From: a virus
Strand: one strand, 5' to 3'
Length of the DNA: 64,000 nt
Virus record (IMG/VR): IMGVR_UViG_3300022752_000019
Location: 32,001-96,000 of that record
Position numbers and translations under genes: made by a program. The notes under the pieces were generated by a model. That model saw only the letters and a list, made by a program, of their open reading frames with translations. It did not search any database and was not told the origin of the DNA. Positions 19,833 through 36,394 of this stretch are shown here, one piece after another. Within the stretch, counting starts at the first letter, position 1; every line of letters begins with the position of its first letter.

Positions 19833-19845
19833 CCTCCTCGGAGAC

Positions 19846-21867: not shown

Positions 21868-21868
21868 C

Positions 21869-23374: not shown

Positions 23375-23385
23375 TGGAATTCCTG

Positions 23386-24390
23386 TTAGTTCTTAGACTT
23401 GCGGAACTTTTCGTGTTCCTTGGATCGATGGGAAACTCCGAAGCCAAGTCCAGCCCCTACAAGGCCAGAAAGAGTCGGAACTCCGTACCTCTCCAGGGCC
23501 TTAGCATCGGAAATATCCTTGTAATTAGGCTCAAACGTTAGTAGTCTTAGCTCTTCTATCTTAGCTCTTCTGTCTCCCACTGACGCGACGGCCTCGTTCT
23601 TGCTCTCAAGAATGTCCGCCCTGTCCTTCTTCATCTTCTGAAGTTCAGACCGAAGACTCATGACCTGCTGCTCTTTGGCCCGTAGCTCCTTTAAATGCTC
23701 ATTGAGATAGGCCTTTGCAATTAGCGTATTCTGATCTTTTGGTCCCTTGGCTTTTCTTAGATCTCGATATGCAGTTTGTGAATTGCTTACAGACTGCTTT
23801 AAGGATTGAATATCGTTGGTCATGAGGTCGTTGATCTGCGACATCGTCGAGGAGTATGCCTTCTTGAGATCCTCCGTCTGTGAGGCATAGCTTGCGATGC
23901 TTTTTTGTAGATCAGAGATAGCCTTTTTGTGGTCTCCCATCTCTGTCTGTACAGTCTTTGAAAAGGCAGACCGCGCCTTAGATAGTCGAGACGTCGGACC
24001 AATACCGCCAAGAACAGCTCCGGCGATACCTCCAACAGCCGCTCCCCGTGCTCCTTCTCTTACCGCATCATCGCCAGAGCCCTTTGCGCCGACTCCGGCA
24101 CCTGCCAGCGCCCCCGCTCCAGCGGACAGCCCAACGCGATGAGTAACCGGATTCTTGAAGATCTCCGAAAGTCGCGAAGTCACGGAAGCTACCTTGGCGC
24201 GACCTGCCTCAAGGAAGTCGTCGCAAACACTTTCCGGTTCCGCCTCAAACGAGAACTTCTCGCAGTATCCTGCGCCGTCATTTAGCGCCCGGAAGTACGA
24301 GCAGGTCTCACAGCGAGCATCGGAGGCGGTTGGGCGATAGTTGGGAGCATCTTCTACTCCGGCAATCTTTGGCCAAAACGGAATCATCAC
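23386..24390 (-). CDS. Cys-motif + glycine-zipper + coiled-coil protein (lower GC)
   Basis: PKIAG, a small C..C/C/C domain, AKVAS, Gly zippers, a long basic coiled coil, and a C-terminal Gly zipper. Confidence 0.7.
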   Translation of the reverse strand: MMIPFWPKIAGVEDAPNYRPTASDARCETCSYFRALNDGAGYCEKFSFEAEPESVCDDFLEAGRAKVASVTSRLSEIFKNPVTHRVGLSAGAGALAGAGVGAKGSGDDAVREGARGAAVGGIAGAVLGGIGPTSRLSKARSAFSKTVQTEMGDHKKAISDLQKSIASYASQTEDLKKAYSSTMSQINDLMTNDIQSLKQSVSNSQTAYRDLRKAKGPKDQNTLIAKAYLNEHLKELRAKEQQVMSLRSELQKMKKDRADILESKNEAVASVGDRRAKIEELRLLTFEPNYKDISDAKALERYGVPTLSGLVGAGLGFGVSHRSKEHEKFRKSKN

Positions 24391-25643
24391 ATACCTCCGC
24401 CGGAAGGAGAGACCAGTTTATACGAGCTTCCGTCCTTGTAGAAGAGCAAGAACATGCCCTGAATCGGCCGACCAGATCGATGAGCGTCTACTTCTGCCTT
24501 CATGAGCGGTCCGAGGATCTTACGCAACGCCGTCTGGTCCTTTTCCTTCTCGAGATTAGCTGCTACAGACTTAGGAACGCCAACTGTATAAGGAGTGCCG
24601 CTAATCTCGTAGTACTGTAGGTCCATTGGCGCTACACCCGCAGCCACCTTAAACTTACTACCCTTGAGAACCACGGACGCCGGAACCCTGTTTGCGGAAC
24701 CAAATGCAAGCTGAGCAGCGGCCCCCTTGAATTCCTCTACACCTTCCTCCCTGGTTCCGACTCTGGGCAGGCCCAGCCTTTCACGTTCGCGCTGTCTGCT
24801 CATTAGGCCGTATTCTTTTAGACCGATGTTGACAGCACTGACTCCCGATGAGATAGTAGCAGAGCCTTTTGCGCCCTTGAGCGCACCTTCTACCAAGGAG
24901 GACCCTGCCTCTCTGGCGGATTTTGCTCCTCGATACCCTCCGAGAGATAGACCAACACCCATCGGCAGCATGATTGACTTAAGGCTATCCTTGGTTCGAG
25001 CTACCAAGCCTTGTTGCGTAAGAAATCGATCCTTGGCCTCTGCTTTACGAAGGTTGGCGAGATTTTCAAGCTGCAAAGGCGTCATCTGAAATGCGTCAGT
25101 AGTCCGCAACTCTGCTGAGCTCAGCTTGTTGATGCCCATGGACGATGCGCCGTCGCCAACCACACGTCCAAAACCCTGACGCTGTTGGTATGGCGGATAC
25201 ATCTGATCGATCAGGGACTTCTGCCTCTGTGGCTGATCCGCCGGACCCTGGAACATGGCAGGGTTGAGAAGAGACGCCTGAACCCTTTCGGCAGTCAGTG
25301 GGTAAACGTTTCCGCCGAGTTCGAAGGTGTGAAATGGCTGAAGTTGGCGGTCTGCCACAATGATCGGGATGCGCACGATGTTCTGCGGGTTCTTCGAGGC
25401 AGTGGCCGCAGCGGGATCGTTCTTCGCCATCACAAGAGCATGGCCGAAGGCAAAGCCCGCTTCGGGCTCTACCCGCTGCATGTGAAGGTCAATCTCGTAC
25501 TGAGATAGGAACGGGAGCTGAAGGTGCAGGTTTGACAGAACGTGCGCCGGCCACTTCGCATCATCATCGGGCATGGCTGCGATCGACGCCTGCTTCTCGA
25601 AGAACGCATGCGGATTGACCGGCTTGAGGAACAGGGACGTCAT
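24387..25643 (-). CDS. Virion protein with genome-typical N-half and lower-GC C-terminal module
   Basis: EKQAS near the N-terminus; composition changes after NKLSS (25116-25127). Confidence 0.7.
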   Translation of the reverse strand: MTSLFLKPVNPHAFFEKQASIAAMPDDDAKWPAHVLSNLHLQLPFLSQYEIDLHMQRVEPEAGFAFGHALVMAKNDPAAATASKNPQNIVRIPIIVADRQLQPFHTFELGGNVYPLTAERVQASLLNPAMFQGPADQPQRQKSLIDQMYPPYQQRQGFGRVVGDGASSMGINKLSSAELRTTDAFQMTPLQLENLANLRKAEAKDRFLTQQGLVARTKDSLKSIMLPMGVGLSLGGYRGAKSAREAGSSLVEGALKGAKGSATISSGVSAVNIGLKEYGLMSRQRERERLGLPRVGTREEGVEEFKGAAAQLAFGSANRVPASVVLKGSKFKVAAGVAPMDLQYYEISGTPYTVGVPKSVAANLEKEKDQTALRKILGPLMKAEVDAHRSGRPIQGMFLLFYKDGSSYKLVSPSGGGM

Positions 25644-25655
25644 GCAGACCTCGTA

Positions 25656-26762
25656 TCAATCGGCTTCGAGCACGGTTGACAGGAACGGACTTCGAGTAGC
25701 GAGAGACGCTACGATATCACTAAGAAGCGCGTCTGTCGCAGGAGTAGCAGGAATGCCGAGAGACGCCAGGGCACCCTTAATCTCGGTGAGCGAGTCTTGT
25801 AGCTTCCCGAGAAAGTCTGTGCCCAGTAGGACAGGCTGAGATTCCGAACCAGAATTACTTGTGATTCGGATTTTCCCATCCAGTGTTACTCGCGCGTCTC
25901 CCTTACGTGCGATTTCGCACACAAACGATCGACTTGCGCTCTCGTCTGCGCTCTCATCTGGACACACGCTGAATCGGTAGACCACTGCCGCCGTATCGAA
26001 AGACGCCGGCTTCTTCATCGTGACGACCAGTGGAGTGAGGACTCCGAGTTCTCCCTCCACCTGTAGTGTGACTGGAGTATCGACCAGTGCCGGGACTGCG
26101 ATCGGCCCGTCGAGCTCAAGACGACTTAGTGCTCCGCTTGCGGGGTCGCGGATTGATCCAGCCTCAGAGCTGACTGTCCATCCTCCTGAGTTGACGTACT
26201 CCCTGGCTCTGAAAGTATACGCACACGTCAGGTCTCCGAACGCATCTTCCTCTCTGCCATAGGACTTCCACTCCATTGAGCCGCCGAACGTCTCGACTTT
26301 CCAATTCTCTGCAATTGTTAGGATCTGGTTGATGAATGGATTTGTGACGATGCGGGATAGAGCGGTCCCGCGGAACTCAGTCACACCACCTCTACGCGCG
26401 ATGATCCCATTCCCATCCCGGGTCAGGATCGCCATGTCTCCTGGGGAGAGGTAGGGTCTTCCTGAATGATAGGAGCCGGGCTGCCCGTCCTGCGTGGCAG
26501 CGGAGGGCTGAGGTGCTGACAACAGCAAGAACGCCCCAGCACCGTCCGAAGGCGCGCAGACGAAGCACAGAGCGCCCACCTCGGGCATGTAGTGAATCCC
26601 CTCCCCCGACGGAGTCGAGTAGAGAGAGGGGATGATGACGTTGGTAAACTCCCTCTTTACCGTGTCGCAGTAGACCACACAGGTCCAGCGTGCCGAATCG
26701 ACGAGAACAACTCGGCCCTGAAGGACTGTGGGTTGCGATGGCCGTAGAGGCTTACTCGTCAT
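25656..26762 (-). CDS. Baseplate central spike (gpV/gp5 OB-fold-like), probable
   Basis: GRVVLVD...MPEVGALCFV OB-fold pattern, beta-strand middle region, and QPVLLG..F C-terminal motif. Confidence 0.6.
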   Translation of the reverse strand: MTSKPLRPSQPTVLQGRVVLVDSARWTCVVYCDTVKREFTNVIIPSLYSTPSGEGIHYMPEVGALCFVCAPSDGAGAFLLLSAPQPSAATQDGQPGSYHSGRPYLSPGDMAILTRDGNGIIARRGGVTEFRGTALSRIVTNPFINQILTIAENWKVETFGGSMEWKSYGREEDAFGDLTCAYTFRAREYVNSGGWTVSSEAGSIRDPASGALSRLELDGPIAVPALVDTPVTLQVEGELGVLTPLVVTMKKPASFDTAAVVYRFSVCPDESADESASRSFVCEIARKGDARVTLDGKIRITSNSGSESQPVLLGTDFLGKLQDSLTEIKGALASLGIPATPATDALLSDIVASLATRSPFLSTVLEAD

Positions 26763-27182
26763 TCAGCGGTCCGACGAAGGGCGGCCCAGCAGATATCCAG
26801 TTCCAAGAGCCCCAGCACCCAGCGCCCCAGCTCCGAGAGTTCCGGCTCCAATAAGAGCCGCCGTGTCTCTATTGGCAGCAACTCCATCTGATGCGCGGGT
26901 CAGCGCCTTGCCGAGTGTTTCACGCACTCCTCCGGCAGTAGCCCCTCCCGATAGCATTCTGCCCAGACCACCGGCTGCATTTCCGACTGCGTCGCCGACC
27001 GCAGCTAAGCCGCGTCCTGTCGCCGATAGAACAGCCTCTTTCTGCATGTGTGCGTCGAATGCTCGAAGATAAGCTTCCGGCATCTGCCCGTCGCAAGTGC
27101 CAAAATTTCTGATGATGAACTCTGCACGCTTTTCTTGTTCCACGAGTTGAAGAGCAACCCGATACGCTGCAATCTTGTTCAC
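26763..27182 (-). CDS. KxA + glycine-zipper virion protein
   Basis: NKIAA, EKRA, QKEA, then GAGTLGAGALGAGALG. Confidence 0.7.
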   Translation of the reverse strand: MNKIAAYRVALQLVEQEKRAEFIIRNFGTCDGQMPEAYLRAFDAHMQKEAVLSATGRGLAAVGDAVGNAAGGLGRMLSGGATAGGVRETLGKALTRASDGVAANRDTAALIGAGTLGAGALGAGALGTGYLLGRPSSDR

Positions 27183-27191: not shown

Positions 27192-30100
27192 TCAGAAAAA
27201 GGAAAGAAAACCAGAGGTTTTTCTCTCGGAGGGAGTTGTTGGGGCAGGCTTTCCAGGCAAAGTTGCCTTCGGCACGTTCACCATTCTATCAGGAACGCCC
27301 GGGGCGTTCGGAAGCTTAACAGCGCCCGGGGGCTCTAATCCGAACTCGGCTCCGTGCGCGATTCCCGCGATCGGATGGCCGTGGATGTCAGACTTCCAGT
27401 TTTGAGCAGCACCTTCGACGTAGGTCTCCTCGAGGCGCTGGAAGTTCAGGCGAGCCATCCAGTCCTCCTGACCGGCCAGCGGCATCTTGTTCATCGCCTT
27501 GAGCTGTGGCGTGTGCTTGATCTCGCGCTTGTTCATGGAGCGAAGCTCCTTGTTTTTGCGCTCAATCTCCGACATGGGAACAAGTTGCCCACGCAAGTAT
27601 GCGTGATCGTCGCCAGGGTCATCTACCCGAGTAAGGTCCGTCATTGCGCGAATGACGGTCTCGATGTTCCTACGACGCTCGTTGCCGGTCGTCTCGACGT
27701 ATAGCTCGTTGAGGCTGTCCGCGATGTGCGTGCGAACCGCGCCCATGTTCTTCGTGATGGCAAGGATGTCGTGCGGGTTCTTTCTCCCCTCAGAGAGGGC
27801 CTCTGCCTTGTCGACTTCAACTCCAACTCGGATCGAGGGGAGAAGCGGACTTGTGAACGGAACGACGTGCTGTTTCCCGTCAATGGTGACAATCTTTCCG
27901 CCGAGCGCGTCGTTTTCGATCTTCTCGACCTTGCCCGCAACGGTAGATAGGACTGCTGCTCCCTTGAGCTTCTTGGGAACCTTGAACAAGTCCTCGGCAG
28001 CGGTGAAGTAGTCGCCCACGCCGCTTGTCCCTCCGACACCTCCGGTGTGGAAGGTGCGCATCTGCATCTGCGTGATGGGCTCGCCGAGTGCGTGGCCTGC
28101 GATGATGCCAACGTTTGTGCCGATTGGGTATAGGGAGCCGCGCTCACTGAGTCCGTAGCAAGTGGCGCAGATCCCCTTGACCTCGTTGCAGTGGAGGGGA
28201 GAGCGAACAAGGATCTTCTTCGGCCCGTCGTTCTTGATCTTGGAACGGATCTGCGGAGTGATGAGCGTTCCCTTGGGAATGGCCTCCCCTCCCTTGAGCG
28301 GAACTTCTCCGGCAAGGAAGCGCCCCTCGATGTCTGCCTCCATCGAAGAAAGCAGCGCACCGCGAATCGTTCCGCAGTCCTTCGACTTGATCGTGTTGTC
28401 GATGACGGTGTTGATGAGCTCCTTGGTCAGCGCACCAGGCTTGGCCGTTGCCGAGGCGCGATCGATGGTTCCTTTCCGAGCACCATGCAGCGACGCATAG
28501 TACTGCGAGACTGGAAGTCCCTCTCCAAAGGACTTGGTGATGGCAAAAGGCACGGTCTGATTCATCGGATCCTGCACCAGCATGGGCCCCATGACCATCT
28601 GACCGAACTGGTTCCAGTCGCCCTTTGCGCCAGACCGTGCCCAGTCCCACATGCGGTTGTCGAGGCGAGAGTTGTACCTGGCCTCCCCAACCTGCTTCAG
28701 CTCCTTCTGCGCCTTTTGGTACAGCGCGATGATCTTCTCATCCTTCTGCTGCTTGGAGCCCGAACCCTTGAGGATGGAGTCCTCTTCCTTCTTGTACTTG
28801 ACGAGAACCTCGTCCCGAAGCTTGAAACCGTCGTGGAAGTCGTTGATAGATACGCTGGACCCATTCTTGAAGGCAAGGTTGAACCCAATCGTCTTCCACT
28901 GGTCGATCATCTTTGAGAACTCTTCTGGTTCCGCGCGAGCTACACGCGTGGCAAACCGCTTCATGGAGCCTTTCGCCATACGGAAGCTCGGATCGTAGAG
29001 GAGATCCTCATCGCCCTTGAACTGCTGCGGAAGGGTCGCATTAATCATCAACCGACCAGCCGTAGTGGGTTTCTTTAGCCCCTTGACTTTGATGACGTTG
29101 TACGACTTAATCTTGCCAGCCTTCACAGCCTGGATCGCCTGTTCTTCCGTAAATTCTCCCGAAACCGGCTTGCCCCATTCCGTCGCCTGGAAGATGCCGA
29201 GCACCGAGTCCTGGCTCGGAGTCACCATGAGACCTCCACTCGTCGGAGAGAAGAGGTTCTTCGAGGGCATCATGTTCTTGGCTTCTTGTACTGCGGCATC
29301 CGTGATGGGCACGTAGAGGGCCATCGTGTCACCGTCGAAGTCCGCGTTGAAGCCTCCAGTCACGAGGGGATGGATCTTGATGGACTTGCCCTCAATCAGC
29401 CGAGGACGGAAAGCCAAGATTGAGAACAGGTGAAGCGCGGGGTCACGCTTCATCATCGCAGGACGATCGCGGACAACTCTCTCGAGTGCCTCATTTGCGG
29501 CAGGATGGTTCTTCTTGATCATCATACGCGCCTCGCCCGGAGACGTGGCCCGCCCCATGTTGCGCCACAGCTCCTTGATGACGAAGGGCTTGTACATCTC
29601 CATCGCCATCTCTCGAGGGACGCCGACCTCATCAAGCGGCATTTCGGGGTCGGGCGTGATGACCGAACGACCCGAGAGATCTTGACGCTTCCCGAGAACA
29701 CCTGACTGGAAGAACGACTGCTTCGGCTGCCGAAGGCCCGTCATCTTGTCCATGAGGGAAGGGACCTGCTTGCCTTCCATCTGCATGCCGGTGACACGCA
29801 GCGCCTTGGTCGTCTCATAGATCTGTGCCTGGACCTTCTGAATCTCTCCAATCGGCATCTTCTCTTTTTCTGCCTGCTCGAGCTGCTTCACCATCTGCCC
29901 AATGATGGCGTACATCTTGTTCGCAGGGTCGATGATCTGTGTGCCATCGAAGCCAATGCTTACGCGGCGCAGAGAGGGGGGAAGAACAGGCAGGACCTTG
30001 TTGGTGTACGCATCAACCGGCTTGATACCAAGTTCTTTCAGCGCCCGAAGGTAGCGCACCCTCTTGTACGCGACGTTCAGCTCGTTCTCGCTTGCCTCAG

Positions 30101-33100
30101 CAAGCTCTTTCTCGGATGCCTTTAGTTCCTTGTTAACGTCGATGTCCCTTAGCTTCTCCTCGATGATGGCAAAGCCGGACTTCCGTCCAACCGCGCCCGA
30201 CTCGGTCAACAGCTTCTGGAACTCAGGCTTGGGCATCTTGAGGAGTAGGCGAATCGGCTCCTCAAACATGGGGTTGGGAATGCGCACACCCAACTCCATG
30301 TGTGTCCACTTGGTTCCCTCAAGGCCGCCAGTCTTGGCCTTATCGAATAGGCCGCCACGTTCTTCTTTGGTCAAAGAGCCCTTGGCTGCGAGTGTCTTCT
30401 CGGGGAATGCAAGGGCTCCCGAACTCTGGGCAATCGTCTGCTTGTCCGTCATCGGCATGAGCGAGTACTCGCGGCCCTTACGGTCCGTGTAGACGCCCAT
30501 CGCGCGAAGGTAGTGAGTGAACTGCTCCATTGAGCGCGGAACTTTCGGAGGAGGCGGACGCTCTCCACGCATGATGCGTGTCCACACGTCCTCCGCCTGT
30601 TCGCGGTCGGACTTGTAAGTCTGCATCTCACGAAGGTTCTGCTTGGCCCCGTGGGCAAGCAGGGTGTAGGTGTCCAGGCCGCCAATGCGCTGACCGCCCT
30701 CTCCGAGGCCCGATCCCTGTGATGCCTCGCCGGTGGTCTTGTACGCATAGCCGAAGCCGCCAGCACGAGCAGAGATCTTTTTCTCGGCCTGATGGTCCAG
30801 CTTCAGGATGTACTGATGGCCCGTGAGAACCTGTCCCAGGCTCTCGCCTGTCTCCGGATCAAAAAGCTCATCGGTATCGGAGATCTTGTGCTTCTTGAGT
30901 TCCTCCTTGACGAGAGCTGCGTAGTCAGTGCCCGGCTCAAAGTTGTTGATCACGAAAGGCTTGCCGGTCTTGAGGGCAACCTTGCTGACCGCAGTCTCGA
31001 GCACCTGTCCAGGGTTCATACGCGAAGGAATGCCCGCTGGAGACAGCAGGACGTGAACTGGATTACCGTCCTTGTCCTTCGGCATCTTGTCATCGGGCAG
31101 AATCTTAGTAACAATGCCCTTGTTTCCGTGACGACCAGAGAGCTTGTCGCCGACCTCCATGGTCTGCTCGGTGCGAATGAACACGGCGATCTTGCGGCCA
31201 TTGTTCGACACGCGAGCTACGGTTCCGCCGTACTCGTGATCCCAGCGAACGCCTGCATCGGTGTAGTCCTGAATGGCTCCCTTTAGCCGGCGACGGATGT
31301 CCTCGGTATCCTTGGACATGACCTGCTTCTGGAGCTTGGCGATCAGTACGTCACCAGGCTCAACTTTCTGCCCTACGCGGATCACTCCATCGTCGTCGAG
31401 CTTCTGAAGGATCTCTGGGGTCGCCTTGACGGGACCAGCGTACTGACGCCACATCTTCTTGTTGACGACAACGTTCGGGTGCATCTCGGCTTCTGCCGAG
31501 TGCAGATGGCTGGAGATCAACTTCTGCGCGGCTGACTCCGAGATGACGACGCCGTCCTCGAAGTTGTACCCACGGTACGGGATGTACGCGACACGCAGAT
31601 TTGTACCAAGCGCCAGCTTGCCGCCCTTGGTGAAGTTGGAGTCCGCGAGAAGCTGCCCTCTACGAACTTTGTCTCCTACTGCGACCTTGGGCTCCGAGTG
31701 GAGCATGTGCTTCGCGCCGTTGAGCGGGAAGTTCTCATACAGCGCGTGGGTGTACCGCTTCTTATCGTCGCCCTCGACAACAATGCGCTGCTTAGAGACC
31801 TCGATGACTTTACCGTCCGCGTCCGAGGTGATTGCCGCGGTCGCGCCTACGATGTCTTCGTAGGACGCTCCACCGGAAGCCTGGGTCTGAACAAGGGGGG
31901 CCTCTCTTTCGCGAAGTCCTACAGCTTGCTCCTGGTGCTTGGCCGCCATCATTGCGCGGTTGCCGTTGTCGTTTTGGACGAACGGGATCAGGTTCGCGCT
32001 GGCTGCAAATAGCAGCTTGGACGATGGGAGGATGTAGTCAACCTCCTTCCACGGACGCTTTGAAGTGTTCCGGTCGCTGTCGTAGACCACGACGTGCGAG
32101 GCAAGTGGAGTGACCTTTACCGACCCGTCTGGCTTGCGCTCAACCTTTGCCTGATCAGGGTACGCAACGACAGCATGTTCGAGATCGGCCGCCGTCTTGT
32201 GCTCAATCTTGCCTGTGCGCACGTTGACGACTTGCGCATGGAGGTCGTGACCGACCTTCTTTGCTCCAAGTGGGACGTGTAGGATGATGCCCGTGTGCGA
32301 GCTTTCTGGAGTCTGAAGAGGGTCAAGCAACCCGAGGTGGCTCGGATTGATCAACTTGTCTTCCATCAGATTGACGTTCTCTCCCTTGATGCCTCCGAAC
32401 TCCGCACCGAGGATGGTCGTACGCGTGTGGTTCGAGACAAACTGAAGCGGGTTTGTCTGGGTGGGCAACTGTCCGGCCTTGAAAGGCTTCAGAATGGCAG
32501 CTCCGTAGCCGGAGGCGGACGCTGGGATGATGTCCTGGATCGAGGTCTTGCGGTCTACGTTGTTTCGGATCTTGCGAGTCAGGGCGTAGACAGTCTTACC
32601 CTTGGTAAGCTCCTCGTAGACATAGTCCTCTGCGCCGAACAGCCTCTTGTTTGAAAGGGACTGCCGGTCATCCTCGGGCACATCGCCACGGCTAATGTCA
32701 ACAAGCTTCTTCGCCGAGAGAAGCAACGCCTCTCCGGTGATCTTGTCGAACTCCTTGCCAAATGCGGCCTTCATCGTCTGAGGGCTGACCTCGGCCCCCT
32801 CAAAGACTTCCTTGGTGAACTTGGCTGCTTCCGCTACAGAGGGGGCCTTGTAGTTCTCCCCTTCCTTACGTGCCTCGATCGCTTTGTGGAACTTCAGGAT
32901 GTCCGTAGGAGAACTCTTGGCGCGGTTAATCTCGAAGATCTTATCGCCAAGCGCACTTCGGATCTTGCTGTCGTCGACACCCATCGCAGACAGAACCGCG
33001 TACACAGGAATCTGGACAGTAGAGGATCCGCTACTCTTGACGTCCATCGTCATCAAGCCAAGCTTCTTCGGATCCTTGCGCTCGATGTAGATGTCGAAAG

Positions 33101-33551
33101 AGCCAACCTTGCTCCCTGCCGCGACGTTCCACTTTGCCAGAAGATCGCCGTTCTGCGCTTCGGCATGGTAGGCGCCAGGATTCAGCCGAAATACGCTGTC
33201 CAGCTGCATCTCGTTGCCGTTAACGATGTAGCTGTAGCGAGTTGTGATCTTGGGGATCTTTCCAAGCGTCCGGGGCTTCTCATCAAGAACTTTCCCGGTG
33301 GCCTTGTCGATCAGTCGGAACACTCCGACGATGTCTGGTCCCCATGTCCTGTCATTCAGCCGAGCTTCAAGCTGACTGTTGTAGTTTGCAGGATTGAACT
33401 GCGCCGCTCCGGACGCTGAGCTGTCCTCGACCTCGATGCGCACAAGCTCCAATCGGTGCTTGCTTCCCTCAATCGGAAAGTGAGACGAAATTGCCTCTTT
33501 CGTCTTCTGCACCAGGAGATTGTAGCTTTCAATCGGGTTCAAGTTGGACAT
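27192..33551 (-). CDS. rpoBC: Single-chain DNA-directed RNA polymerase, beta-beta' fusion
   Basis: beta motifs (GYNFEDG, GDKLSGRHGNKG, PSRMNPGQ, GGQRIG) precede beta' motifs (LGKRQDLSGRSVI, NADFDGD at 29328-29348, HGARKG, GEPITQMQMRTFHTGG) in one ORF. Confidence 0.97.
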   Translation of the reverse strand: MSNLNPIESYNLLVQKTKEAISSHFPIEGSKHRLELVRIEVEDSSASGAAQFNPANYNSQLEARLNDRTWGPDIVGVFRLIDKATGKVLDEKPRTLGKIPKITTRYSYIVNGNEMQLDSVFRLNPGAYHAEAQNGDLLAKWNVAAGSKVGSFDIYIERKDPKKLGLMTMDVKSSGSSTVQIPVYAVLSAMGVDDSKIRSALGDKIFEINRAKSSPTDILKFHKAIEARKEGENYKAPSVAEAAKFTKEVFEGAEVSPQTMKAAFGKEFDKITGEALLLSAKKLVDISRGDVPEDDRQSLSNKRLFGAEDYVYEELTKGKTVYALTRKIRNNVDRKTSIQDIIPASASGYGAAILKPFKAGQLPTQTNPLQFVSNHTRTTILGAEFGGIKGENVNLMEDKLINPSHLGLLDPLQTPESSHTGIILHVPLGAKKVGHDLHAQVVNVRTGKIEHKTAADLEHAVVAYPDQAKVERKPDGSVKVTPLASHVVVYDSDRNTSKRPWKEVDYILPSSKLLFAASANLIPFVQNDNGNRAMMAAKHQEQAVGLREREAPLVQTQASGGASYEDIVGATAAITSDADGKVIEVSKQRIVVEGDDKKRYTHALYENFPLNGAKHMLHSEPKVAVGDKVRRGQLLADSNFTKGGKLALGTNLRVAYIPYRGYNFEDGVVISESAAQKLISSHLHSAEAEMHPNVVVNKKMWRQYAGPVKATPEILQKLDDDGVIRVGQKVEPGDVLIAKLQKQVMSKDTEDIRRRLKGAIQDYTDAGVRWDHEYGGTVARVSNNGRKIAVFIRTEQTMEVGDKLSGRHGNKGIVTKILPDDKMPKDKDGNPVHVLLSPAGIPSRMNPGQVLETAVSKVALKTGKPFVINNFEPGTDYAALVKEELKKHKISDTDELFDPETGESLGQVLTGHQYILKLDHQAEKKISARAGGFGYAYKTTGEASQGSGLGEGGQRIGGLDTYTLLAHGAKQNLREMQTYKSDREQAEDVWTRIMRGERPPPPKVPRSMEQFTHYLRAMGVYTDRKGREYSLMPMTDKQTIAQSSGALAFPEKTLAAKGSLTKEERGGLFDKAKTGGLEGTKWTHMELGVRIPNPMFEEPIRLLLKMPKPEFQKLLTESGAVGRKSGFAIIEEKLRDIDVNKELKASEKELAEASENELNVAYKRVRYLRALKELGIKPVDAYTNKVLPVLPPSLRRVSIGFDGTQIIDPANKMYAIIGQMVKQLEQAEKEKMPIGEIQKVQAQIYETTKALRVTGMQMEGKQVPSLMDKMTGLRQPKQSFFQSGVLGKRQDLSGRSVITPDPEMPLDEVGVPREMAMEMYKPFVIKELWRNMGRATSPGEARMMIKKNHPAANEALERVVRDRPAMMKRDPALHLFSILAFRPRLIEGKSIKIHPLVTGGFNADFDGDTMALYVPITDAAVQEAKNMMPSKNLFSPTSGGLMVTPSQDSVLGIFQATEWGKPVSGEFTEEQAIQAVKAGKIKSYNVIKVKGLKKPTTAGRLMINATLPQQFKGDEDLLYDPSFRMAKGSMKRFATRVARAEPEEFSKMIDQWKTIGFNLAFKNGSSVSINDFHDGFKLRDEVLVKYKKEEDSILKGSGSKQQKDEKIIALYQKAQKELKQVGEARYNSRLDNRMWDWARSGAKGDWNQFGQMVMGPMLVQDPMNQTVPFAITKSFGEGLPVSQYYASLHGARKGTIDRASATAKPGALTKELINTVIDNTIKSKDCGTIRGALLSSMEADIEGRFLAGEVPLKGGEAIPKGTLITPQIRSKIKNDGPKKILVRSPLHCNEVKGICATCYGLSERGSLYPIGTNVGIIAGHALGEPITQMQMRTFHTGGVGGTSGVGDYFTAAEDLFKVPKKLKGAAVLSTVAGKVEKIENDALGGKIVTIDGKQHVVPFTSPLLPSIRVGVEVDKAEALSEGRKNPHDILAITKNMGAVRTHIADSLNELYVETTGNERRRNIETVIRAMTDLTRVDDPGDDHAYLRGQLVPMSEIERKNKELRSMNKREIKHTPQLKAMNKMPLAGQEDWMARLNFQRLEETYVEGAAQNWKSDIHGHPIAGIAHGAEFGLEPPGAVKLPNAPGVPDRMVNVPKATLPGKPAPTTPSERKTSGFLSFF

Positions 33552-33571
33552 TAAAAATGTCTCCGATAGAG

Positions 33572-33579
33572 GTCATAAG
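33572..33579 (+). promoter_or_regulatory. Candidate phage promoter motif GTCATAAG, overlapping minus-strand TATACT (33578-33583)
   Basis: In the divergent gap beside the RNAP start; upstream A-tract. Confidence 0.55.
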
Positions 33580-33617: not shown

Positions 33618-33692
33618 ATGGGCAACTATTCCGGCCCCGACGAAGGAGCCTCAAATCCGTTCAAGGACACCGATCGCTTCGGCGATTGGTAA
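33618..33692 (+). CDS. 24-aa micro-ORF MGNYSGPDEGASNPFKDTDRFGDW
   Basis: Strong SD AAGGAGA, first ORF after the promoter motif. Confidence 0.45.
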   Translation: MGNYSGPDEGASNPFKDTDRFGDW

Positions 33693-33693
33693 G

Positions 33694-33780
33694 ATGGTGC
33701 TGTTTTTCTGGATGGCGGCGATCGTCGCCGCCATCCAATCGTCGAGTGACGTCCTCGAGGACGAGCTTGGCGAGGAGTAG
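33694..33780 (+). CDS. 28-aa micro-ORF MVLFFWMAAIVAAIQSSSDVLEDELGEE
   Basis: ATG 1 nt after the previous stop; hydrophobic N-half with an acidic tail. Confidence 0.35.
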   Translation: MVLFFWMAAIVAAIQSSSDVLEDELGEE

Positions 33781-33845
33781 ACGATTCGGGCGCCTCCGAG
33801 CCAGACTTCAGTCTGAGCTCGGAGGCTTGCCCTCGCGTCCTCACT
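33709..33845 (+). ncRNA. Putative structured RNA element (two strong hairpins)
   Basis: 13-bp perfect stem at 33709-33737; 15-bp bulged stem at 33792-33826 with extendable flanking pairing. Confidence 0.35.
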
Positions 33846-33925
33846 CTTCAGCACTTTTATTTAAGACGCAGGAAGAAGATACTCTAAAAGAGTACTGTCC
33901 TCTGATCGGCGAGAGGTGCGGAGTA

Positions 33926-34090
33926 ATGGAATGTCGAGGGTGCCCGGCCATCCCAGAAGGAAGATGGATGTGCTCTGTCTGCGCAAAGCCTCACAGTGTC
34001 CAGCCGTTCTGGACGTCGGGACACTGTGATGCCTGCGGCATAGAGTCAAGTTTCCTTTCCCTGGTGCCAGATGCTTCCCTTCGTATGTGA
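33926..34090 (+). CDS. Small Cys-rich (Zn-finger) protein
   Basis: CRGC, CSVC, CDAC; start uncertain. Confidence 0.5.
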   Translation: MECRGCPAIPEGRWMCSVCAKPHSVQPFWTSGHCDACGIESSFLSLVPDASLRM

Positions 34091-34325
34091 CCACTGTGGC
34101 GCAGAGGCCGCGAAAGACGACAAGATGATCAGCGTTGCTCGGCACCGTGTCGTTCGTCGTCCGCGAAAGTGGGACATCGAGGACGAGGCATTTGCCACGC
34201 TTGGAAGCGAGGCCATGTTTCATGAGCAGTGCTTCGTAGACAACGCGCGAGAGATCCTCGCCGCGCTCTACGAAGGTCTTCCGATCGAGCAGCCCAGGAA
34301 GAGACCGGCTTACCTCGTGCGATGA
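34071..34325 (+). CDS. Small Zn-finger-like protein
   Basis: CDHC...FHEQC. Confidence 0.55.
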   Translation: MLPFVCDHCGAEAAKDDKMISVARHRVVRRPRKWDIEDEAFATLGSEAMFHEQCFVDNAREILAALYEGLPIEQPRKRPAYLVR

Positions 34326-34327
34326 GG

Positions 34328-36394
34328 TCAGCCGATGGCTCTTCCTGGGTCTGCCTGCGGAGTTCCGTTAGGGGCTGGATTTTGCTGCGCGTTCAGCGGG
34401 TTGACCTGCGATCCCTTGTCATTCATTAGCTGAACAACCAGTTGATACAGCGGTGGGTTCTCAGTCTGCATCTGCTGAAGCGCCTGATACATTGCCTGCT
34501 CACCCTGTTCTTTCTTTAGCGTACGGAAGTACGCGACGGCGCGCTGAGCGACGTACCGCAGGTCTACTCCCCCTGAGCCCGGTTGAATCTGCGACTGAAC
34601 GCCTGCCATGGCAGCAGGCATGCCGGATTCGTTGGGAGCGCCTGCATTTTCTGCATAGGCAGTTGCGCCCTCTGGGAGCCCAGGAGTTTGCTGAGCAGCA
34701 TCGCCAGCCGGGGCCGCCTGCTGCTGTGCAGCGGCTTGCGCGGCGGCTTGCGTGGCGGCTTGCGCGGCGGCGGGGTCTTGTACTCCCATTTGCTGCTGGG
34801 CCTGCTGCATCTGCTGCTGCATCTCCATCTGCGCCTGACCCTGCGCCTTTAGCGTAAGGGCCTGTGCCTTCGCCTGGTAGCGTGAGGTACGAAGCTGCGC
34901 CTCTCCTTGAATGTCGGCAGAGGCAACCTGCATCTTGCGGTTGGCTTGGATCTGCTTCTTGATTTCGCGCCCCATGCGCTCAGATTCAAGATCGAAGTCC
35001 TCGCCCAGTTCCTCCATGAGGCGATGGTCGCTGATCTTCTGCGCTTGGTTGAGCTGGAGGTAGAACATGCTCCTTTGGAGGTCGTCGGCCATGCGGAACT
35101 TGTCGAACCGCGAAGAAACCCGCGGCCACTCCATGAATGCCGCAATCTTCTGCATAATGAAGACGTTGATTAGCTCATGGCGCTGCTTGTTGTAGCCGAG
35201 GAACATGTTCTCGAGCGCGCGGAGCGACGTGCTGGACCCGGACCATTGAAGTCCGCCGAAGATGAACTCCACCGGAATGCCTGCGCCTGCGAGCATCTGT
35301 TCGGCCAGGAGTCTCATCTCCTGGTACATCAGAAGGGCTCGCCCCTGGCCGCCGATCTGCTGGAACCCGATGTTGACAGGTAGGACCGGGATGTAGTTGT
35401 GATCCCGTTTCCACATGTTGATCTCTTCATCGACCCGACGCTTCCAGTTCGTCAGGTTGTAGGCCCCATAAGGCCCTTCATTACCTCCGGTGTTCTGTCC
35501 TGGGAAGATCATCCGCATCGGGACGATATTTTCCATAAGGATCGCTTCGTTCGCCTTCTTCATTACCTGAAGGTAGAACGCGTCCTTCAGGAGCGGGAAG
35601 ATGAGGGGTGTTCCCCAGCCCTGGTCCTTCTGCGCGATTGTCGGGCGCTTCAGGTGGTACAGGTTCTCCTCTGAGAAGAGGAGTGACTTGCCTGCGCGCG
35701 CGGCCTCGAGGAACTCAAGAGGCAGGCTCTCGATCTCGTCACAGTCCCCCATTTTGATGTCGTTGATCACGCTCTTGGGCAGGCGGAAGTAGTACTTCGT
35801 CTGCCCAGTGATCTCGTTGTGCTTGATGTCGATGTTTTCCGGGTTCCAGCGGACCAGTCGAATCTGCCGGAACGAGCGGATGTACACATCGTGCTGCTTG
35901 GCGTAGCCCTCGTGGCCGCAGTCGCACTTGTGCAGGTAGAAGCGAGAGTCGCGCCACTTGTAGCGAAAGCGGTTGGTCTTGGCACGATAGCGTGCCCCGC
36001 AGGAGCTACAGATCAGGTACTTCTCAAAGGGAAGGAACACGGAGACAAACGCGTTCCCGTACACGAAGTAGTCCAGGCCGACCTCGACCTGGAACGAACG
36101 TAGCTTGAGGTGGTCTTCGACCTTCTTGTAGAGCTTGATGACCTCTGGATCATCAGTCTCAAAGATCAGAGGCGTCACCGGATACTCGGCCATCTTTGAA
36201 CAGGCCGCGTTGATCACTGGATTGGTTAGGAAGTAGTACCGGCACCACTTGTGGAGTTCGTGCTGATTGGCCGGAAGAAACTGCTGGGAGATGTCAAAGA
36301 ACGGCGATGGGTAGCGGATGCCAAAGCCTCGCCCACCCTCGGCAGTAACGGGCCGAGGGTTGAAGCGGTTGACCTCGCTTGTGACGACGTTCAT
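34328..36394 (-). CDS. Portal protein
   Basis: NPVINAACSKMAEYP, DYFVYGNAF, and LYHLK...GWGTPLI portal-type motifs; Gln/Ala-rich C-tail. Confidence 0.8.
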   Translation of the reverse strand: MNVVTSEVNRFNPRPVTAEGGRGFGIRYPSPFFDISQQFLPANQHELHKWCRYYFLTNPVINAACSKMAEYPVTPLIFETDDPEVIKLYKKVEDHLKLRSFQVEVGLDYFVYGNAFVSVFLPFEKYLICSSCGARYRAKTNRFRYKWRDSRFYLHKCDCGHEGYAKQHDVYIRSFRQIRLVRWNPENIDIKHNEITGQTKYYFRLPKSVINDIKMGDCDEIESLPLEFLEAARAGKSLLFSEENLYHLKRPTIAQKDQGWGTPLIFPLLKDAFYLQVMKKANEAILMENIVPMRMIFPGQNTGGNEGPYGAYNLTNWKRRVDEEINMWKRDHNYIPVLPVNIGFQQIGGQGRALLMYQEMRLLAEQMLAGAGIPVEFIFGGLQWSGSSTSLRALENMFLGYNKQRHELINVFIMQKIAAFMEWPRVSSRFDKFRMADDLQRSMFYLQLNQAQKISDHRLMEELGEDFDLESERMGREIKKQIQANRKMQVASADIQGEAQLRTSRYQAKAQALTLKAQGQAQMEMQQQMQQAQQQMGVQDPAAAQAATQAAAQAAAQQQAAPAGDAAQQTPGLPEGATAYAENAGAPNESGMPAAMAGVQSQIQPGSGGVDLRYVAQRAVAYFRTLKKEQGEQAMYQALQQMQTENPPLYQLVVQLMNDKGSQVNPLNAQQNPAPNGTPQADPGRAIG

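What the first reader, a model, noticed from the sequence alone, without database searches (positions are those of the whole stretch)
27192..33551. Streamlined single-chain beta-beta' RNA polymerase inside the virion operon
Seen: one 2119-aa ORF with bacterial-like beta motifs (to ~30500) fused to beta' motifs, including NADFDGD, bridge helix, trigger loop and the C-terminal Zn site. It is about 600 aa shorter than E. coli beta plus beta'. It is co-oriented with, and upstream of, spike and head genes. No alpha, omega or sigma gene was recognised in the window. Established: some tailed phages encode two-barrel RNAPs (phiKZ multi-subunit; crAss-like virion RNAP). From memory, a metagenomic Caudovirales clade with cellular-like beta/beta' ('mReC') has been reported, and this genome may belong to it. 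Inference: a late-expressed, virion-packaged enzyme that transcribes early genes.
Basis: partly seen in the sequence, partly recalled or inferred. Interest (0 to 1): 0.8.

Follow-up and report, generated by a model that had tools for sequence, protein, structure and literature searches.

The report
Single-chain bacterial-type RNA polymerase of a phage
An uncultured 165-kb tailed phage encodes both large subunits of a bacterial-type RNA polymerase as one 2119-residue protein among its virion genes, and this undescribed but widespread enzyme probably pairs with a phage sigma factor and travels in the virion to start infection.

Summary
Window 27192-33551 (-) is one uninterrupted 2119-aa ORF, a bacterial-type beta fused head-to-tail to beta'. 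All catalytic motifs are intact. The beta' N-terminal Zn ribbon is absent.

It is not an artefact. More than 150 clusters (50% identity) of metagenomic proteins and the best 80 related IMG/VR loci found share the fused form. No cultured phage in the collection searched has it.

The host genome is a 164.6-kb viral contig distantly related to Salmonella phage Arash and Vibrio phage D69. Those phages keep beta plus the beta' N-half in one gene and the beta' C-half in another.

The gene lies just downstream of the portal gene. It heads a tight run of genes that includes the tail central spike.

- No alpha or omega homologue was found in the genome.
- One sigma-70-family gene lies about 50 kb away.
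- A fold model docks that sigma on the clamp helices.

In Arash virion mass spectrometry, the RNAP and a homologous sigma were among the most detected proteins. Late expression and packaging are therefore plausible by homology, but not shown here.

The phage enzymes form a clade outside all sampled bacteria. Membership of the published mReC group is not supported by its listed features.

This is a new variant of a known kind, of moderately high interest.

The parts
27192..33551 (-). Fused beta-beta' RNA polymerase gene (2119 aa, protein P0001)
   Evidence: ORF list and translation. Pfam, NCBIfam and PDB matches to bacterial beta and beta'.
30417..33551 (-). Beta module (residues 1 to about 1045), colinear with minimal bacterial beta subunits
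   Evidence: Residues 62-1016 align with residues 70-1048 of cyanobacterial beta, chain 8syi_C. Rpb2_6 and Rpb2_7 matches.
30399..30416 (-). Joint of about six residues (R-E-Y-S-L-M) between the beta C-terminal helix and the beta' N-terminus
   Evidence: Family alignment of the joint. One relative, L169, is split exactly here by a 1-nt difference. The fold model is confident across the joint.
30306..30344 (-). Site where the beta' N-terminal Cys4 Zn ribbon is replaced by a short Cys-free loop
   Evidence: No Cys in residues 1021-1130 of this protein or of the 24 relatives. PDB matches to beta' begin only at about beta' residue 150-176.
29811..29945 (-). Beta' clamp helices (residues 1203-1247), the predicted docking site for the phage sigma
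   Evidence: Interface residues in the complex model. Two long helices with pLDDT above 90.
29328..29348 (-). NADFDGD catalytic Mg2+ motif (residues 1402-1408)
   Evidence: Translation. D1404, D1406 and D1408 are invariant in the family.
28158..28376 (-). Beta' C-terminal Zn site (C1726, C1788, C1795, C1798)
   Evidence: All four Cys are invariant in 25 family members.
32397..32474 (-). Rifampicin-pocket region of beta, altered by a 3-residue deletion and substitutions
   Evidence: Alignment with cyanobacterial beta. The equivalents of E. coli F514 to D516 are missing or changed, and N stands at the position of the conserved His.
27195..27338 (-). Pro-rich C-terminal tail ending in G-F-L-S-F-F
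   Evidence: The terminal F-x-S-F-F motif behind a variable linker is conserved only in the subclade that holds this phage.
34328..36394 (-). Portal protein gene, directly upstream
   Evidence: 32% identity to Arash gp204 portal, E 7e-89. Upstream on the same strand in 70 of 79 related loci.
33552..33578 (+). Sigma-28-format promoter-like motif TAAA-N15-GGTCATAA, abutting the RNAP start codon and pointing away from it
   Evidence: Ten such motifs occur in the genome, nine on the + strand and most just upstream of + strand ORFs. The hexamers are kept and the spacer varies in relatives with 84-87% RNAP identity.
33618..34325 (+). Small opposite-strand cassette between the portal and RNAP genes: a 24-codon ORF and two small Cys-rich ORFs (33926-34090, 34071-34325)
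   Evidence: Sequence read directly. Homologues on the opposite strand upstream of the RNAP gene in 13-21 related loci. No family hits.
26763..27182 (-). 139-aa gene 9 nt downstream of the RNAP gene, function unknown
   Evidence: ORF list. No family hits.
25656..26762 (-). Tail central membrane-piercing spike gene
   Evidence: AlphaFold model with mean pLDDT 78.5. Foldseek matches the R2 pyocin spike, P2 gpV, phi92 spike and VgrG at probability 0.87-1.0, but TM-scores are low. Present downstream in 73 of 79 loci.
19302..25643 (-). Seven tightly packed co-directional genes of unknown function; two are rich in K-x-A-[SAG] sites
   Evidence: ORF list. Motif counts of 7 against 0.7 expected, and 3 against 0.8 expected. 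Conserved downstream of the RNAP gene in 59-68 loci.
16167..19187 (-). Large terminase gene interrupted by an intein with a LAGLIDADG endonuclease
   Evidence: PHROG 675, and Pfam Intein_splicing, LAGLIDADG_3 and GpA_ATPase. Homologous to Arash gp1.
5771..6898 (-). Major capsid protein gene
   Evidence: Homologous to Arash gp226, annotated as major capsid protein, E 8e-22.

Best explanation
The ORF encodes a complete, active-looking bacterial-type RNA polymerase catalytic core made as a single chain. Beta is joined to beta' through a linker of about six residues. The lineage-specific inserts of E. coli and the beta' N-terminal Zn ribbon are absent.

It belongs to an uncultured tailed phage of about 165 kb, from a very large metagenomic lineage whose nearest cultured relatives are Salmonella phage Arash and Vibrio phage D69.

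Most likely mechanism (inferred):
1. The enzyme needs no alpha or omega, because fusing the two large subunits removes the need for an assembly platform.
2. It gains promoter specificity from the single phage sigma-70-family factor, which is encoded in the structural gene block about 50 kb away. That sigma binds the beta' clamp helices.
3. The gene is the first of a tight run of virion genes (spike and others) just downstream of the portal gene, so it is made late.
4. RNAP and sigma are packed into the head and enter the cell with the DNA.
5. There they transcribe the + strand non-structural units, which carry TAAA-N15-GTCATAA promoters.
6. As the only phage RNAP detected, newly made enzyme may also carry later transcription.

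Shown here: the ORF, its motifs, the family, the synteny, the presence of sigma, the absence of detectable alpha and omega, and a placement outside all sampled bacteria.

Inferred: packaging, timing, promoter use, and independence from host subunits.
For: Identity
- One ORF with all catalytic motifs, which are invariant in the family.
- Strong matches to bacterial beta' (1e-120) and beta (2e-87).

Not an artefact
- The top 150 representatives at 50% clustering are nearly all fused proteins of 2000-2100 aa, or longer with inteins.
- 441 IMG/VR stretches encode relatives, and the best 80 are full-length fused.

Phage context and kinship
- The portal, capsid, terminase, sigma and structural proteins are homologous to those of Arash and D69.
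- Arash gp206 (1525 aa) plus gp216 (606 aa) total 2131 aa, the same overall layout.

Virion link
- In Arash virion MS, gp206 had the most spectra (3516), gp216 had 1210 and sigma gp10 had 467 (PMC10585845).
- Our sigma P0380 is the gp10 homologue (E 4e-22).
- It lies in a block colinear with Arash gp6-gp13.

Operon position
- Portal is upstream in 70 of 79 loci and spike is downstream in 73 of 79.
- The next gene starts 9 nt after the RNAP gene.
- The spike fold was identified by structure search.

Sigma
- Sigma70_r3 scores above its cut-off, and this is the only sigma detected in the genome.
- Its homologues sit on the same contigs as fused RNAPs.
- Complex model: score 0.67, best of 3 controls 0.00. 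That mark was reached by 58 of 80 solved complexes and 2 of 110 mismatched pairs. Runs agree in at least 53% of contacts, and partner pLDDT is at least 67.
- The interface is RNAP 1203-1247, the clamp helices, against sigma 54-100. Similar complexes are solved, so this shows likeness rather than binding.

Other subunits
- No alpha (PF01000) or omega (PF01192) match in the 164.6-kb record.
- Only one RNAP locus.

Promoter class
- Ten TAAA-N14-16-GTCATAA sites, nine on the + strand ahead of + strand ORFs.
- The hexamers are conserved while the spacer varies in relatives.
- The + strand block encodes helicase, DnaB/primase, DNA polymerase, recombinase and nucleases.

Origin
- 25 bacteria from about nine named phyla fall on one side of a branch (SH-aLRT 100), and the fused family is monophyletic (99).
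- A clade of phage enzymes plus Bacillota is rejected (p-AU 5e-9).
Against: - No measurement exists for this phage or for any fully fused member. None is cultured in the phage collection searched.
- The Arash MS list holds 116 proteins, including ribonucleotide reductase, a kinase and a pyrophosphatase. Carry-over of abundant cytoplasmic proteins is therefore possible, as its authors say.
- Arash is only about 30% identical.
- The RNAP carries no enriched or conserved K-x-A-[SAG] site (2 found, 3.6 expected). That motif marks neighbouring head proteins, so there is no sign of a protease-processed packaging tag.
- A sigma-70-like -35/-10 pair lies 27 nt upstream of the RNAP start on its own strand. 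It could allow early expression by host RNAP, but such matches are no more frequent than chance (8 found, 5.3 expected).
- The RNAP gene is separated from the portal gene by an opposite-strand cassette, so co-transcription with portal is not implied.
- Absence of alpha and omega is judged by profile search in a record that is 89% complete. Use of host alpha, omega or sigma is not excluded.
- Which polymerase reads the TAAA-N15-GTCATAA sites is unknown.
- The tree is unrooted, used LG+G4 with a short search, and includes long branches.
Confidence: 0.6

Rival explanations
1. The enzyme is a non-virion phage RNA polymerase. It is made during infection, from its own promoter, and together with the phage sigma transcribes middle or late genes in the cell. 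It is not a packaged component. Its presence in Arash virion preparations would then reflect carry-over of an abundant large protein.
For: - The Arash MS list of 116 proteins includes clearly non-structural enzymes, and its authors raise this possibility themselves.
- The RNAP has no K-x-A packaging or processing motif, unlike neighbouring head proteins.
- A sigma-70-like promoter match lies directly upstream of the gene.
- There is only one RNAP set in the genome. phiKZ-like phages that package an RNAP also keep a second, non-virion set (PMC7824862).
Against: - In Arash the RNAP had the highest spectral count of all proteins, and the sigma was seen at 100% coverage.
- The gene sits between the portal and central-spike genes in nearly all 79 related loci. 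It is not with the replication genes on the other strand.
- The sigma gene also lies inside the structural block, colinear with Arash.
Confidence: 0.25
2. The fused chain is only the catalytic part. In the cell it recruits host alpha dimer, omega and/or host sigma factors, forming a hybrid holoenzyme. In that case it is not self-sufficient and could not act immediately on injection on its own.
For: - The enzyme is bacterial-type along its whole length, with clamp helices and a flap region retained.
- No phage alpha or omega was found. In bacteria these subunits help assembly (established knowledge).
Against: - phiKZ- and AR9-type phage multisubunit RNAPs work without alpha and omega (reviewed in PMC7598289 and PMC7824862).
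- Covalent fusion of beta to beta' removes the main assembly role of alpha (inference).
- The phage keeps its own sigma across the family.
- The family lies on a long branch away from all bacteria, which makes conserved contacts with any one host's alpha less likely.
Confidence: 0.12
3. The ORF is not a phage gene. Instead it is a cellular rpoB-rpoC pair on a chimeric contig, or an assembly or sequencing error that removed a stop codon between two genes.
For: - One relative (L169) has separate beta and beta' ORFs that overlap by 4 nt.
- Natural rpoBC fusions exist in Helicobacter and Wolbachia (NCBIfam PRK09603 and PRK14844).
Against: - Hundreds of independent assemblies show the same continuous ORF.
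- Neighbours on both sides are phage virion genes.
- It scores far below every cellular equivalog cut-off, for example 580 against 5372 for PRK09603.
- It lies outside all sampled bacteria, including Wolbachia.
- L169 nests inside the fused family and differs at the joint by a single-base deletion.
Confidence: 0.02

Closest known systems
RNA polymerase of Salmonella phage Arash (gp206 plus gp216, with sigma gp10) and Vibrio phages D69, D181 and D148
   Same: - Same domain order and total length (2131 against 2119 aa).
- Same position just after the portal gene.
- Homologous portal, capsid, terminase, sigma and structural proteins.
- Arash RNAP and sigma were detected in virions by MS.
   Different: - There the beta' part is cut at the same point as cyanobacterial rpoC1/rpoC2. 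One gene holds beta plus the beta' N-half and another holds the beta' C-half, with several kb of other genes between them. Here everything is one chain.
- Identity is only about 29-30%.
- In the tree they form a separate long branch.
mReC, the multisubunit-RNAP-encoding Caudovirales (Weinheimer and Aylward 2020, PMC7481178)
   Same: - Tailed phages from metagenomes.
- Beta and beta' are cellular-like enough to match the COG0085/COG0086 type models.
- RNAP genes are surrounded by virion genes.
- The RNAP branches outside the cellular clades.
   Different: - All mReC entries I read list beta and beta' as different genes, of about 1000-1400 and 900-1100 aa. The paper does not mention a fused form.
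- The mReC capsid is T4 gp23-like (PF07068) and the terminase is PF03237. Here the capsid homologue has no Pfam match and the terminase matches PF05876.
- Placement in the mReC RNAP clade was not tested.
phiKZ / AR9 jumbo-phage multisubunit RNAPs (virion and non-virion sets)
   Same: - Phage-encoded two-barrel RNAPs without alpha and omega.
- One set is packaged and injected for early transcription (PMC7824862, PMC7598289).
   Different: - There beta and beta' are each split into two or three polypeptides.
- There are two paralogous sets and no sigma factor.
- The sequences are far more divergent from bacterial enzymes.
- Here there is one fused chain, one set and a sigma-70-family partner.
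crAss-like phage virion RNAP gp66, YonO, and the tape-measure-fused RNAP of Thermus phage P23-45
   Same: Single-polypeptide two-barrel RNAPs of phages. gp66 and the P23-45 enzyme are virion proteins that transcribe early genes (PMC10770324, PMC7481178).
   Different: Those enzymes are so divergent that similarity to beta and beta' is barely detectable, and they lack most cellular domains. This one aligns with bacterial beta and beta' over nearly its whole length.
Natural rpoBC fusions of Helicobacter and Wolbachia
   Same: Beta is fused to beta' in the same order through a short linker, which shows that the joint is structurally tolerated (NCBIfam PRK09603 and PRK14844 matches; Wolbachia locus L099 is a single 2853-aa frame).
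   Different: Those are ordinary cellular enzymes with alpha, omega and the N-terminal Zn ribbon, and they nest within their bacterial phyla. The phage protein is about 700 aa shorter and lies outside the bacteria.

Membership tests
Bacterial-type multisubunit RNAP catalytic core (beta/beta', two double-psi beta-barrels) | Beta' Mg2+ motif NADFDGD | tested here: met
   Residues 1402-1408. The three Asp are invariant in 25 relatives.
Bacterial-type multisubunit RNAP catalytic core (beta/beta', two double-psi beta-barrels) | Beta barrel with GDK..RHGNKG, and Pfam Rpb2_6, Rpb1_2, Rpb1_3 and Rpb1_5 above their gathering scores | tested here: met
   Scores against cut-offs: 213.9 against 23.4, 109.5 against 25.3, 42.2 against 28.9, 87.2 against 28.5. 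G801-G812 is invariant.
Bacterial-type multisubunit RNAP catalytic core (beta/beta', two double-psi beta-barrels) | Bridge helix, trigger loop and beta' C-terminal Zn site | tested here: met
   The GARKG and TFHTGG segments and C1726, C1788, C1795 and C1798 are invariant.
Bacterial-type multisubunit RNAP catalytic core (beta/beta', two double-psi beta-barrels) | Beta' N-terminal Cys4 Zn ribbon | tested here: not met
   No Cys at this site in this protein or in 24 relatives. PDB matches to beta' start at about beta' residue 150-176.
Cellular RpoB / RpoC orthologues (NCBIfam equivalogs) | Score above the curated equivalog cut-off | tested here: not met
   rpoC_TIGR 520 against 963.5; PRK00405 rpoB 407 against 896; the fused PRK09603 580 against 5372.
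Cellular RNAP core enzyme (alpha2-beta-beta'-omega) | Alpha and omega subunits encoded alongside | tested here: not met
   No PF01000 or PF01192 match in the 164.6-kb record, while the control genomes all matched. Use of host subunits was not testable.
Sigma-dependent holoenzyme | A sigma-70-family partner, and retained clamp helices that it can dock on | tested here: met
   P0380 scores 40.3 on Sigma70_r3 against a cut-off of 25.3. The complex model scores 0.67 against a best control of 0.00, with the interface on residues 1203-1247. This shows likeness to solved holoenzymes; binding was not measured.
mReC (PMC7481178) | Beta and beta' encoded as separate genes, each at least 800 aa | tested here: not met
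   Here there is a single ORF. All table entries I read have two gene ids.
mReC (PMC7481178) | T4 gp23-like capsid (PF07068) and PF03237 terminase | tested here: not met
   The capsid homologue has no Pfam hit at E up to 0.1. The terminase matches PF05876 and intein families only.
mReC (PMC7481178) | RNAP falls inside the mReC clade of the RNAP tree | not tested
   No mReC sequences could be retrieved by name with these tools. At least one mReC contig has an Arash-like 1563-aa 'beta', so the groups may touch.
Arash-like phages (unclassified genus) | Shared portal, capsid, terminase, sigma and structural proteins, with the RNAP gene just after the portal gene | tested here: met
   tblastn E-values from 1e-16 to 7e-89. 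Annotated Arash and D69 maps.
Arash-like phages (unclassified genus) | RNAP encoded as beta plus beta' N-half in one gene and beta' C-half in another | tested here: not met
   Fully fused here and in the best 80 related IMG/VR loci.
Virion-packaged RNAP (functional class) | Protein present in purified virions | not testable with these tools
   The only evidence is the MS of the homologues in Arash.
phiKZ-like jumbo-phage RNAPs | Split beta and beta' subunits, two paralogous sets, no sigma | tested here: not met
   One fused locus only. Sigma is present.

The most novel reading that the evidence does not exclude
The protein is a self-sufficient minimal bacterial-type RNA polymerase. One chain plus one small sigma, with no alpha, omega or N-terminal Zn ribbon, is packed into the phage head and injected. 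It then carries out the whole phage transcription programme independently of the rifampicin-sensitive host enzyme. This would make it the founding member of a very large, uncultured and undescribed class of phage transcription machines.
Probability: 0.35. Interest if true: 0.85.

Novelty: new variant of a known kind. Interest (0 to 1): 0.66.

Why it matters
Phage two-barrel RNAPs studied so far are of two kinds. One kind is broken into many pieces (phiKZ, AR9). The other is so diverged that little of the cellular enzyme remains (crAss gp66, YonO, P23-45). This family is the opposite case: a nearly full-length bacterial-type beta and beta' welded into one chain and kept together with a sigma factor.

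If it works without alpha and omega, three things follow:
- It would define the minimal bacterial-type holoenzyme (one 235-kDa chain plus one 277-aa sigma).
- It would test the long-held view that alpha is needed mainly for assembly.
- It would offer a two-gene orthogonal transcription system with bacterial-style promoters.

If it is injected, it adds a third, independent solution to the problem of host-independent early transcription.

The family is abundant. More than 150 clusters at 50% identity and hundreds of IMG/VR contigs of 130-200 kb carry it. Public records call it only 'beta' subunit' or 'hypothetical protein'. I found no paper that describes the fused form.

Tried and rejected
- **Sequencing runs.** I therefore made no read-level check of the joint, no expression data and no habitat check.
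- **Packaging tag.** I looked for the K-x-A-[SAG] head-protease motif noted elsewhere in this genome. In the RNAP it is neither enriched nor conserved.
- **Host clue.** A scan of species-representative genomes returned only ordinary bacterial rpoB-rpoC loci at 27-34% identity.
- **Further sigma, alpha and omega searches.**
  - Sigma70_r2, alpha and omega profiles gave no hit. Sigma70_r4 and TIGR02937 gave sub-threshold hits on the one sigma gene.
  - Two other weak Sigma70_r4 hits were examined. One falls in a ParB/Noc-like protein. The other lies in a short frame overlapping the start of a dCMP-deaminase gene.
- **T7-type RNAP.** The PF00940 search found nothing, but its controls cannot match either, so it is uninformative.
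- **Sliding clamp.** A search for a phage sliding clamp (PF00712), as a possible partner of the C-terminal F-x-S-F-F tail, found nothing.
- **Literature.** Searches for a described fused phage beta-beta' enzyme found nothing relevant beyond crAss-like gp66, YonO and P23-45.
- **Tree building.** The first attempt timed out in MAFFT, and one search call had a term-syntax error. The tree used a faster alignment and LG+G4.
- **Host-type promoter.** The sigma-70-like match upstream of the RNAP gene is not treated as evidence, because such matches are at chance frequency.

Full report
**1. The observation**

Window 27192-33551 on the minus strand is a single ATG-initiated ORF of 2119 codons with no internal stop.

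Pfam places the beta domains Rpb2_6 (578-932) and Rpb2_7 (952-1021) in the first half. It places the beta' domains Rpb1_2, Rpb1_3 and Rpb1_5 (1287-1844) in the second half.

Against solved structures, the second half matches bacterial beta' chains (best 1e-120) and the first half matches bacterial beta chains (best 2e-87). The first half is colinear with the 1100-aa cyanobacterial beta over residues 62-1016.

The following elements are present, and are invariant in an alignment of 25 family members that go down to 41% identity:
- the beta GDK..RHGNKG segment
- NADFDGD
- the bridge helix
- the trigger loop
- the four Cys of the beta' C-terminal Zn site

The protein is 630 aa shorter than E. coli beta plus beta'. 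Most of that difference is the lack of lineage-specific inserts. Compared with minimal bacterial enzymes it is only modestly trimmed.

**2. Anatomy of the joint**

The beta C-terminal helix runs to about residue 1045. About six residues later, the sequence continues with the conserved beta' N-terminal segments.

At the place where bacterial beta' carries its Cys4 Zn ribbon, this protein and all 24 aligned relatives have a short Cys-free loop. Sequence matches to beta' begin only at about beta' residue 150-176.

An AlphaFold model of residues 930-1330 is confident (pLDDT mostly above 90) from about 1009 to about 1269. That range covers the joint and two long helices. The model matches the N-terminal clamp region of bacterial beta' (Foldseek probability 1.0, TM about 0.55).

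One relative (L169, a 115-kb JGI contig) has separate beta and beta' ORFs that overlap by 4 nt. It nests inside the fused family next to a fused sister. It differs at the joint by what looks like a single-base deletion that creates TCATGATG. The linker is therefore a tolerant spot, and fusion and split can interconvert.

**3. It is a family, not an accident**

- A word-indexed search found at least 120 proteins of 2030-2160 aa with full-length similarity (40-88% identity). Some were longer and carried intein domains. They sit on contigs of up to 220 kb.
- An exhaustive profile scan of a library clustered at 50% identity returned 150 best representatives. Nearly all are fused proteins of about 2000-2100 aa or intein-bearing longer forms, and all score above 510 bits.
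- Bacterial beta' proteins score about 400-430 bits.
- IMG/VR holds 441 related stretches, and the best 80 are full-length fused genes.
- In the collection of 50,697 phage records, no cultured phage has the fully fused form.
- Public names for family members are only 'beta' subunit' or 'hypothetical protein'.

**4. Which phage**

The window lies in a 164,603-bp IMG/VR record, estimated 89% complete.

The nearest cultured relatives by RNAP are Vibrio phages D69, D181 and D148 and Salmonella phage Arash (about 29-30% identity). In these phages, one gene of about 1525 aa holds beta plus the N-terminal half of beta'. A separate gene of about 606 aa holds the rest. The cut is at the point where cyanobacteria split rpoC1 from rpoC2.

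The following proteins are also homologous to Arash proteins:
- our portal (34328-36394)
- our capsid protein (5771-6898)
- our terminase (16167-19187)
- a sigma factor
- several structural proteins

The order portal, RNAP, ..., gp222-like protein, capsid is shared with Arash.

**5. Neighbourhood**

The RNAP gene is followed, after 9 nt, by a 139-aa gene. Next comes a 368-aa gene whose AlphaFold model (pLDDT 78.5) matches membrane-piercing central spikes: R2 pyocin, P2 gpV, phi92 and VgrG. Foldseek probability is 0.87-1.0, but TM-scores are low, as expected for a monomer taken from an intertwined trimer.

Seven more tightly packed genes and the intein-bearing terminase follow on the same strand.

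Conservation across 79 related loci with 10-kb flanks:

| Gene | Position relative to RNAP | Loci with it |
|---|---|---|
| portal | upstream, same strand | 70 |
| spike | downstream | 73 |
| three further downstream genes | downstream | 59-68 |
| terminase | downstream | 47 |

Replication and recombination genes lie in a separate block on the other strand. These are helicase, DnaB/primase, DNA polymerase, a UvsX-like recombinase, a Cas4-like nuclease and RusA.

**6. Partner subunits**

Six-frame profile searches of the whole record found no alpha (PF01000) and no omega (PF01192). Controls matched in all 14 reference genomes. There is only one RNAP locus.

One sigma-70-family gene exists, at genome 113885-114718 on the minus strand, outside the window:
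- It is 277 aa (P0380), with Sigma70_r3 above its cut-off.
- Region 4 is weak, and it matches FliA/WhiG-type and RpoD-type models about equally.
- It is the homologue of Arash gp10 (E 4e-22), and lies in a block of very large genes colinear with Arash gp6-gp13.
- Its homologues occur on the same contigs as fused RNAPs.

A complex model of this sigma with RNAP residues 1046-1500 gave a score of 0.67, against a best control of 0.00 among 3 controls. That mark was reached by 58 of 80 solved complexes and 2 of 110 mismatched pairs. Runs agree in at least 53% of contacts, and partner pLDDT is at least 67.

The interface is RNAP 1203-1247, the clamp helices, against sigma 54-100. Sigma-clamp-helix complexes are solved, so this pass shows that the canonical interface is retained in form. 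It does not show that the two proteins bind.

**7. Virion packaging**

The only experimental evidence comes from Arash. In its virion mass spectrometry (PMC10585845):
- gp206 (beta plus beta' N-half) was the most detected protein, with 3516 spectra
- gp216 had 1210 spectra
- sigma gp10 had 467 spectra at 100% coverage

The same list has 116 proteins, including metabolic enzymes. The authors themselves allow for carry-over.

In our protein I found no enriched or conserved K-x-A-[SAG] site (2 found, 3.6 expected). Several neighbouring head-region proteins are rich in this motif. A protease-processed targeting signal is therefore not apparent.

Packaging is thus the most likely reading, at about 60%. 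It rests on gene position, on the sigma gene lying in the structural block, and on the Arash data. It is not shown.

**8. Promoters**

- TAAA-N14-16-GTCATAA occurs ten times in the genome.
- Nine copies are on the + strand, and most lie 17-108 nt upstream of + strand ORFs.
- GGTCATAA is among the two most enriched 8-mers of the intergenic space.

One copy (33552-33578) abuts the RNAP start codon and points away from it. It faces a small opposite-strand cassette with a 24-codon ORF and two small Cys-rich ORFs.

In relatives with 84-87% RNAP identity, both motif halves are kept while the spacer differs. In 72% relatives the motif reads TAAA-N15-GGCCATAA.

The format is that of sigma-28 promoters (established knowledge: TAAA-N15-GCCGATAA). 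It fits a model in which the phage holoenzyme reads the non-structural units. Which polymerase actually reads it is unknown.

No comparable motif marks the minus-strand virion operons.

A sigma-70-like pair lies 27 nt upstream of the RNAP gene on its own strand, but such matches occur at chance frequency.

**9. Origin**

I built a tree on 1930 columns of concatenated beta plus beta', using LG+G4 and a short search. It held:
- 17 family members
- Arash and D69
- one divergent phage relative
- 25 bacteria from about nine named phyla, including three candidate-phyla-radiation groups and the naturally fused Wolbachia enzyme

The tree puts all bacteria on one side of a branch (SH-aLRT 100). The fused family is monophyletic (99).

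Forcing the phage enzymes together with Bacillota, the source of many best database hits, costs 139 log-likelihood units (p-AU 5e-9).

The tree is unrooted and has long branches. It shows that the family is not a recent capture from a sampled phylum. It does not show how old the family is.

**10. Relation to mReC**

The mReC paper selected contigs with separate high-scoring beta and beta' proteins. Every entry I read in its table lists two different genes, and the text does not mention a fused form.

Its capsid family (PF07068) and terminase family (PF03237) are not matched here.

One mReC contig has a 1563-aa 'beta' plus separate beta' fragments, which resembles the Arash layout. The groups may therefore be connected. 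I could not retrieve mReC sequences to test this.

**11. Further inferences**

- The rifampicin pocket of beta has a 3-residue deletion where E. coli has F514-D516. It also has substitutions at the positions of the conserved His and Ser. Changes at these positions give resistance in bacteria (established knowledge), so the enzyme is probably insensitive. This is inference only.
- The subclade that holds this phage has a Pro-rich C-terminal tail ending in F-x-S-F-F. This resembles short clamp-binding peptides, but no phage clamp was found, and the idea is untested.

**12. Verdict**

- The single-chain enzyme in the virion block is real.
- Packaging and early-gene transcription are plausible by homology.
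- mReC membership is not supported by the features that could be checked.

The thing is a new variant of a known kind (phage-encoded cellular-like RNAP). It represents a very large family with no cultured fully fused member and no biochemical study. Other agents of this scan have written reports on overlapping stretches of this genome.

Noticed in passing
window 16167-19187 (-): The large terminase carries an intein with a LAGLIDADG homing endonuclease, inserted before the ATPase domain (Pfam Intein_splicing and LAGLIDADG_3). Many RNAP homologues in the family also carry inteins, with lengths of 2400-4700 aa.
   Followed up: partly
L168:7160-13138 (+): A divergent relative (32% identity, 35% GC, contig of 139 kb) has its RNAP called as three genes. 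The alignment to our protein runs through four in-frame TGA codons in one frame. Two of them align with Trp residues that are invariant in the family (W70, W990). This phage probably reads TGA as Trp, and its RNAP is probably also one fused chain.
   Followed up: partly
L169:9990-10010 (+): One family member has beta and beta' as separate ORFs overlapping by 4 nt (TCATGATG). Compared with fused relatives this looks like a one-base deletion in the linker. It could be a real re-split or a sequencing error.
   Followed up: partly
window 27195-27338 (-): The RNAP ends in a variable Pro-rich linker and a conserved terminal F-x-S-F-F motif, found only in the subclade around this phage. This resembles short docking peptides such as sliding-clamp-binding motifs. 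No phage clamp gene was found.
   Followed up: partly
window 33552-33578 (+) and nine other sites in the genome: TAAA-N14-16-GTCATAA is a sigma-28-format promoter-like motif. It lies almost only on the + strand, ahead of non-structural units and small-gene islands. The hexamers are conserved and the spacer varies in relatives.
   Followed up: yes
window 33586-33604 (+): A hairpin (GCCGG, 9-nt loop, CCGGC) lies between the promoter-like motif and the ribosome-binding site of a 24-codon ORF. It is conserved with compensating loop variation across relatives. Its role is unknown.
   Followed up: no
window 33926-34325 (+): Two small Cys-rich ORFs (about 54 and 84 aa, with CxxC pairs) lie on the opposite strand, wedged between the portal and RNAP genes. 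They are conserved in closer relatives. They may be Zn-ribbon regulators. No family hits.
   Followed up: no
window 21869-23374 (-) and 24387-25643 (-): These two genes downstream of the spike hit the same single protein of about 670 aa in distant relatives, so they look like paralogues or a split of one gene. Both are rich in K-x-A-[SAG] sites.
   Followed up: no
window 32397-32474 (-): The rifampicin-binding pocket of the beta module has a 3-residue deletion and substitutions at resistance-determining positions. This suggests a rifampicin-insensitive enzyme (alignment).
   Followed up: no
window 42900-45545 (+): The 881-aa DnaB-like helicase matches its family in two stretches. Its middle part also matches primase and terminase families, which may indicate an inserted element such as an intein.
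   Followed up: no
genome 21946-22767 (-) and 8033-8833 (+), outside the window: A ParB/Noc-like protein and a dCMP-deaminase-like protein (also close to an 'anti-phage dCTP deaminase' model) are encoded in the left part of the genome.
   Followed up: no
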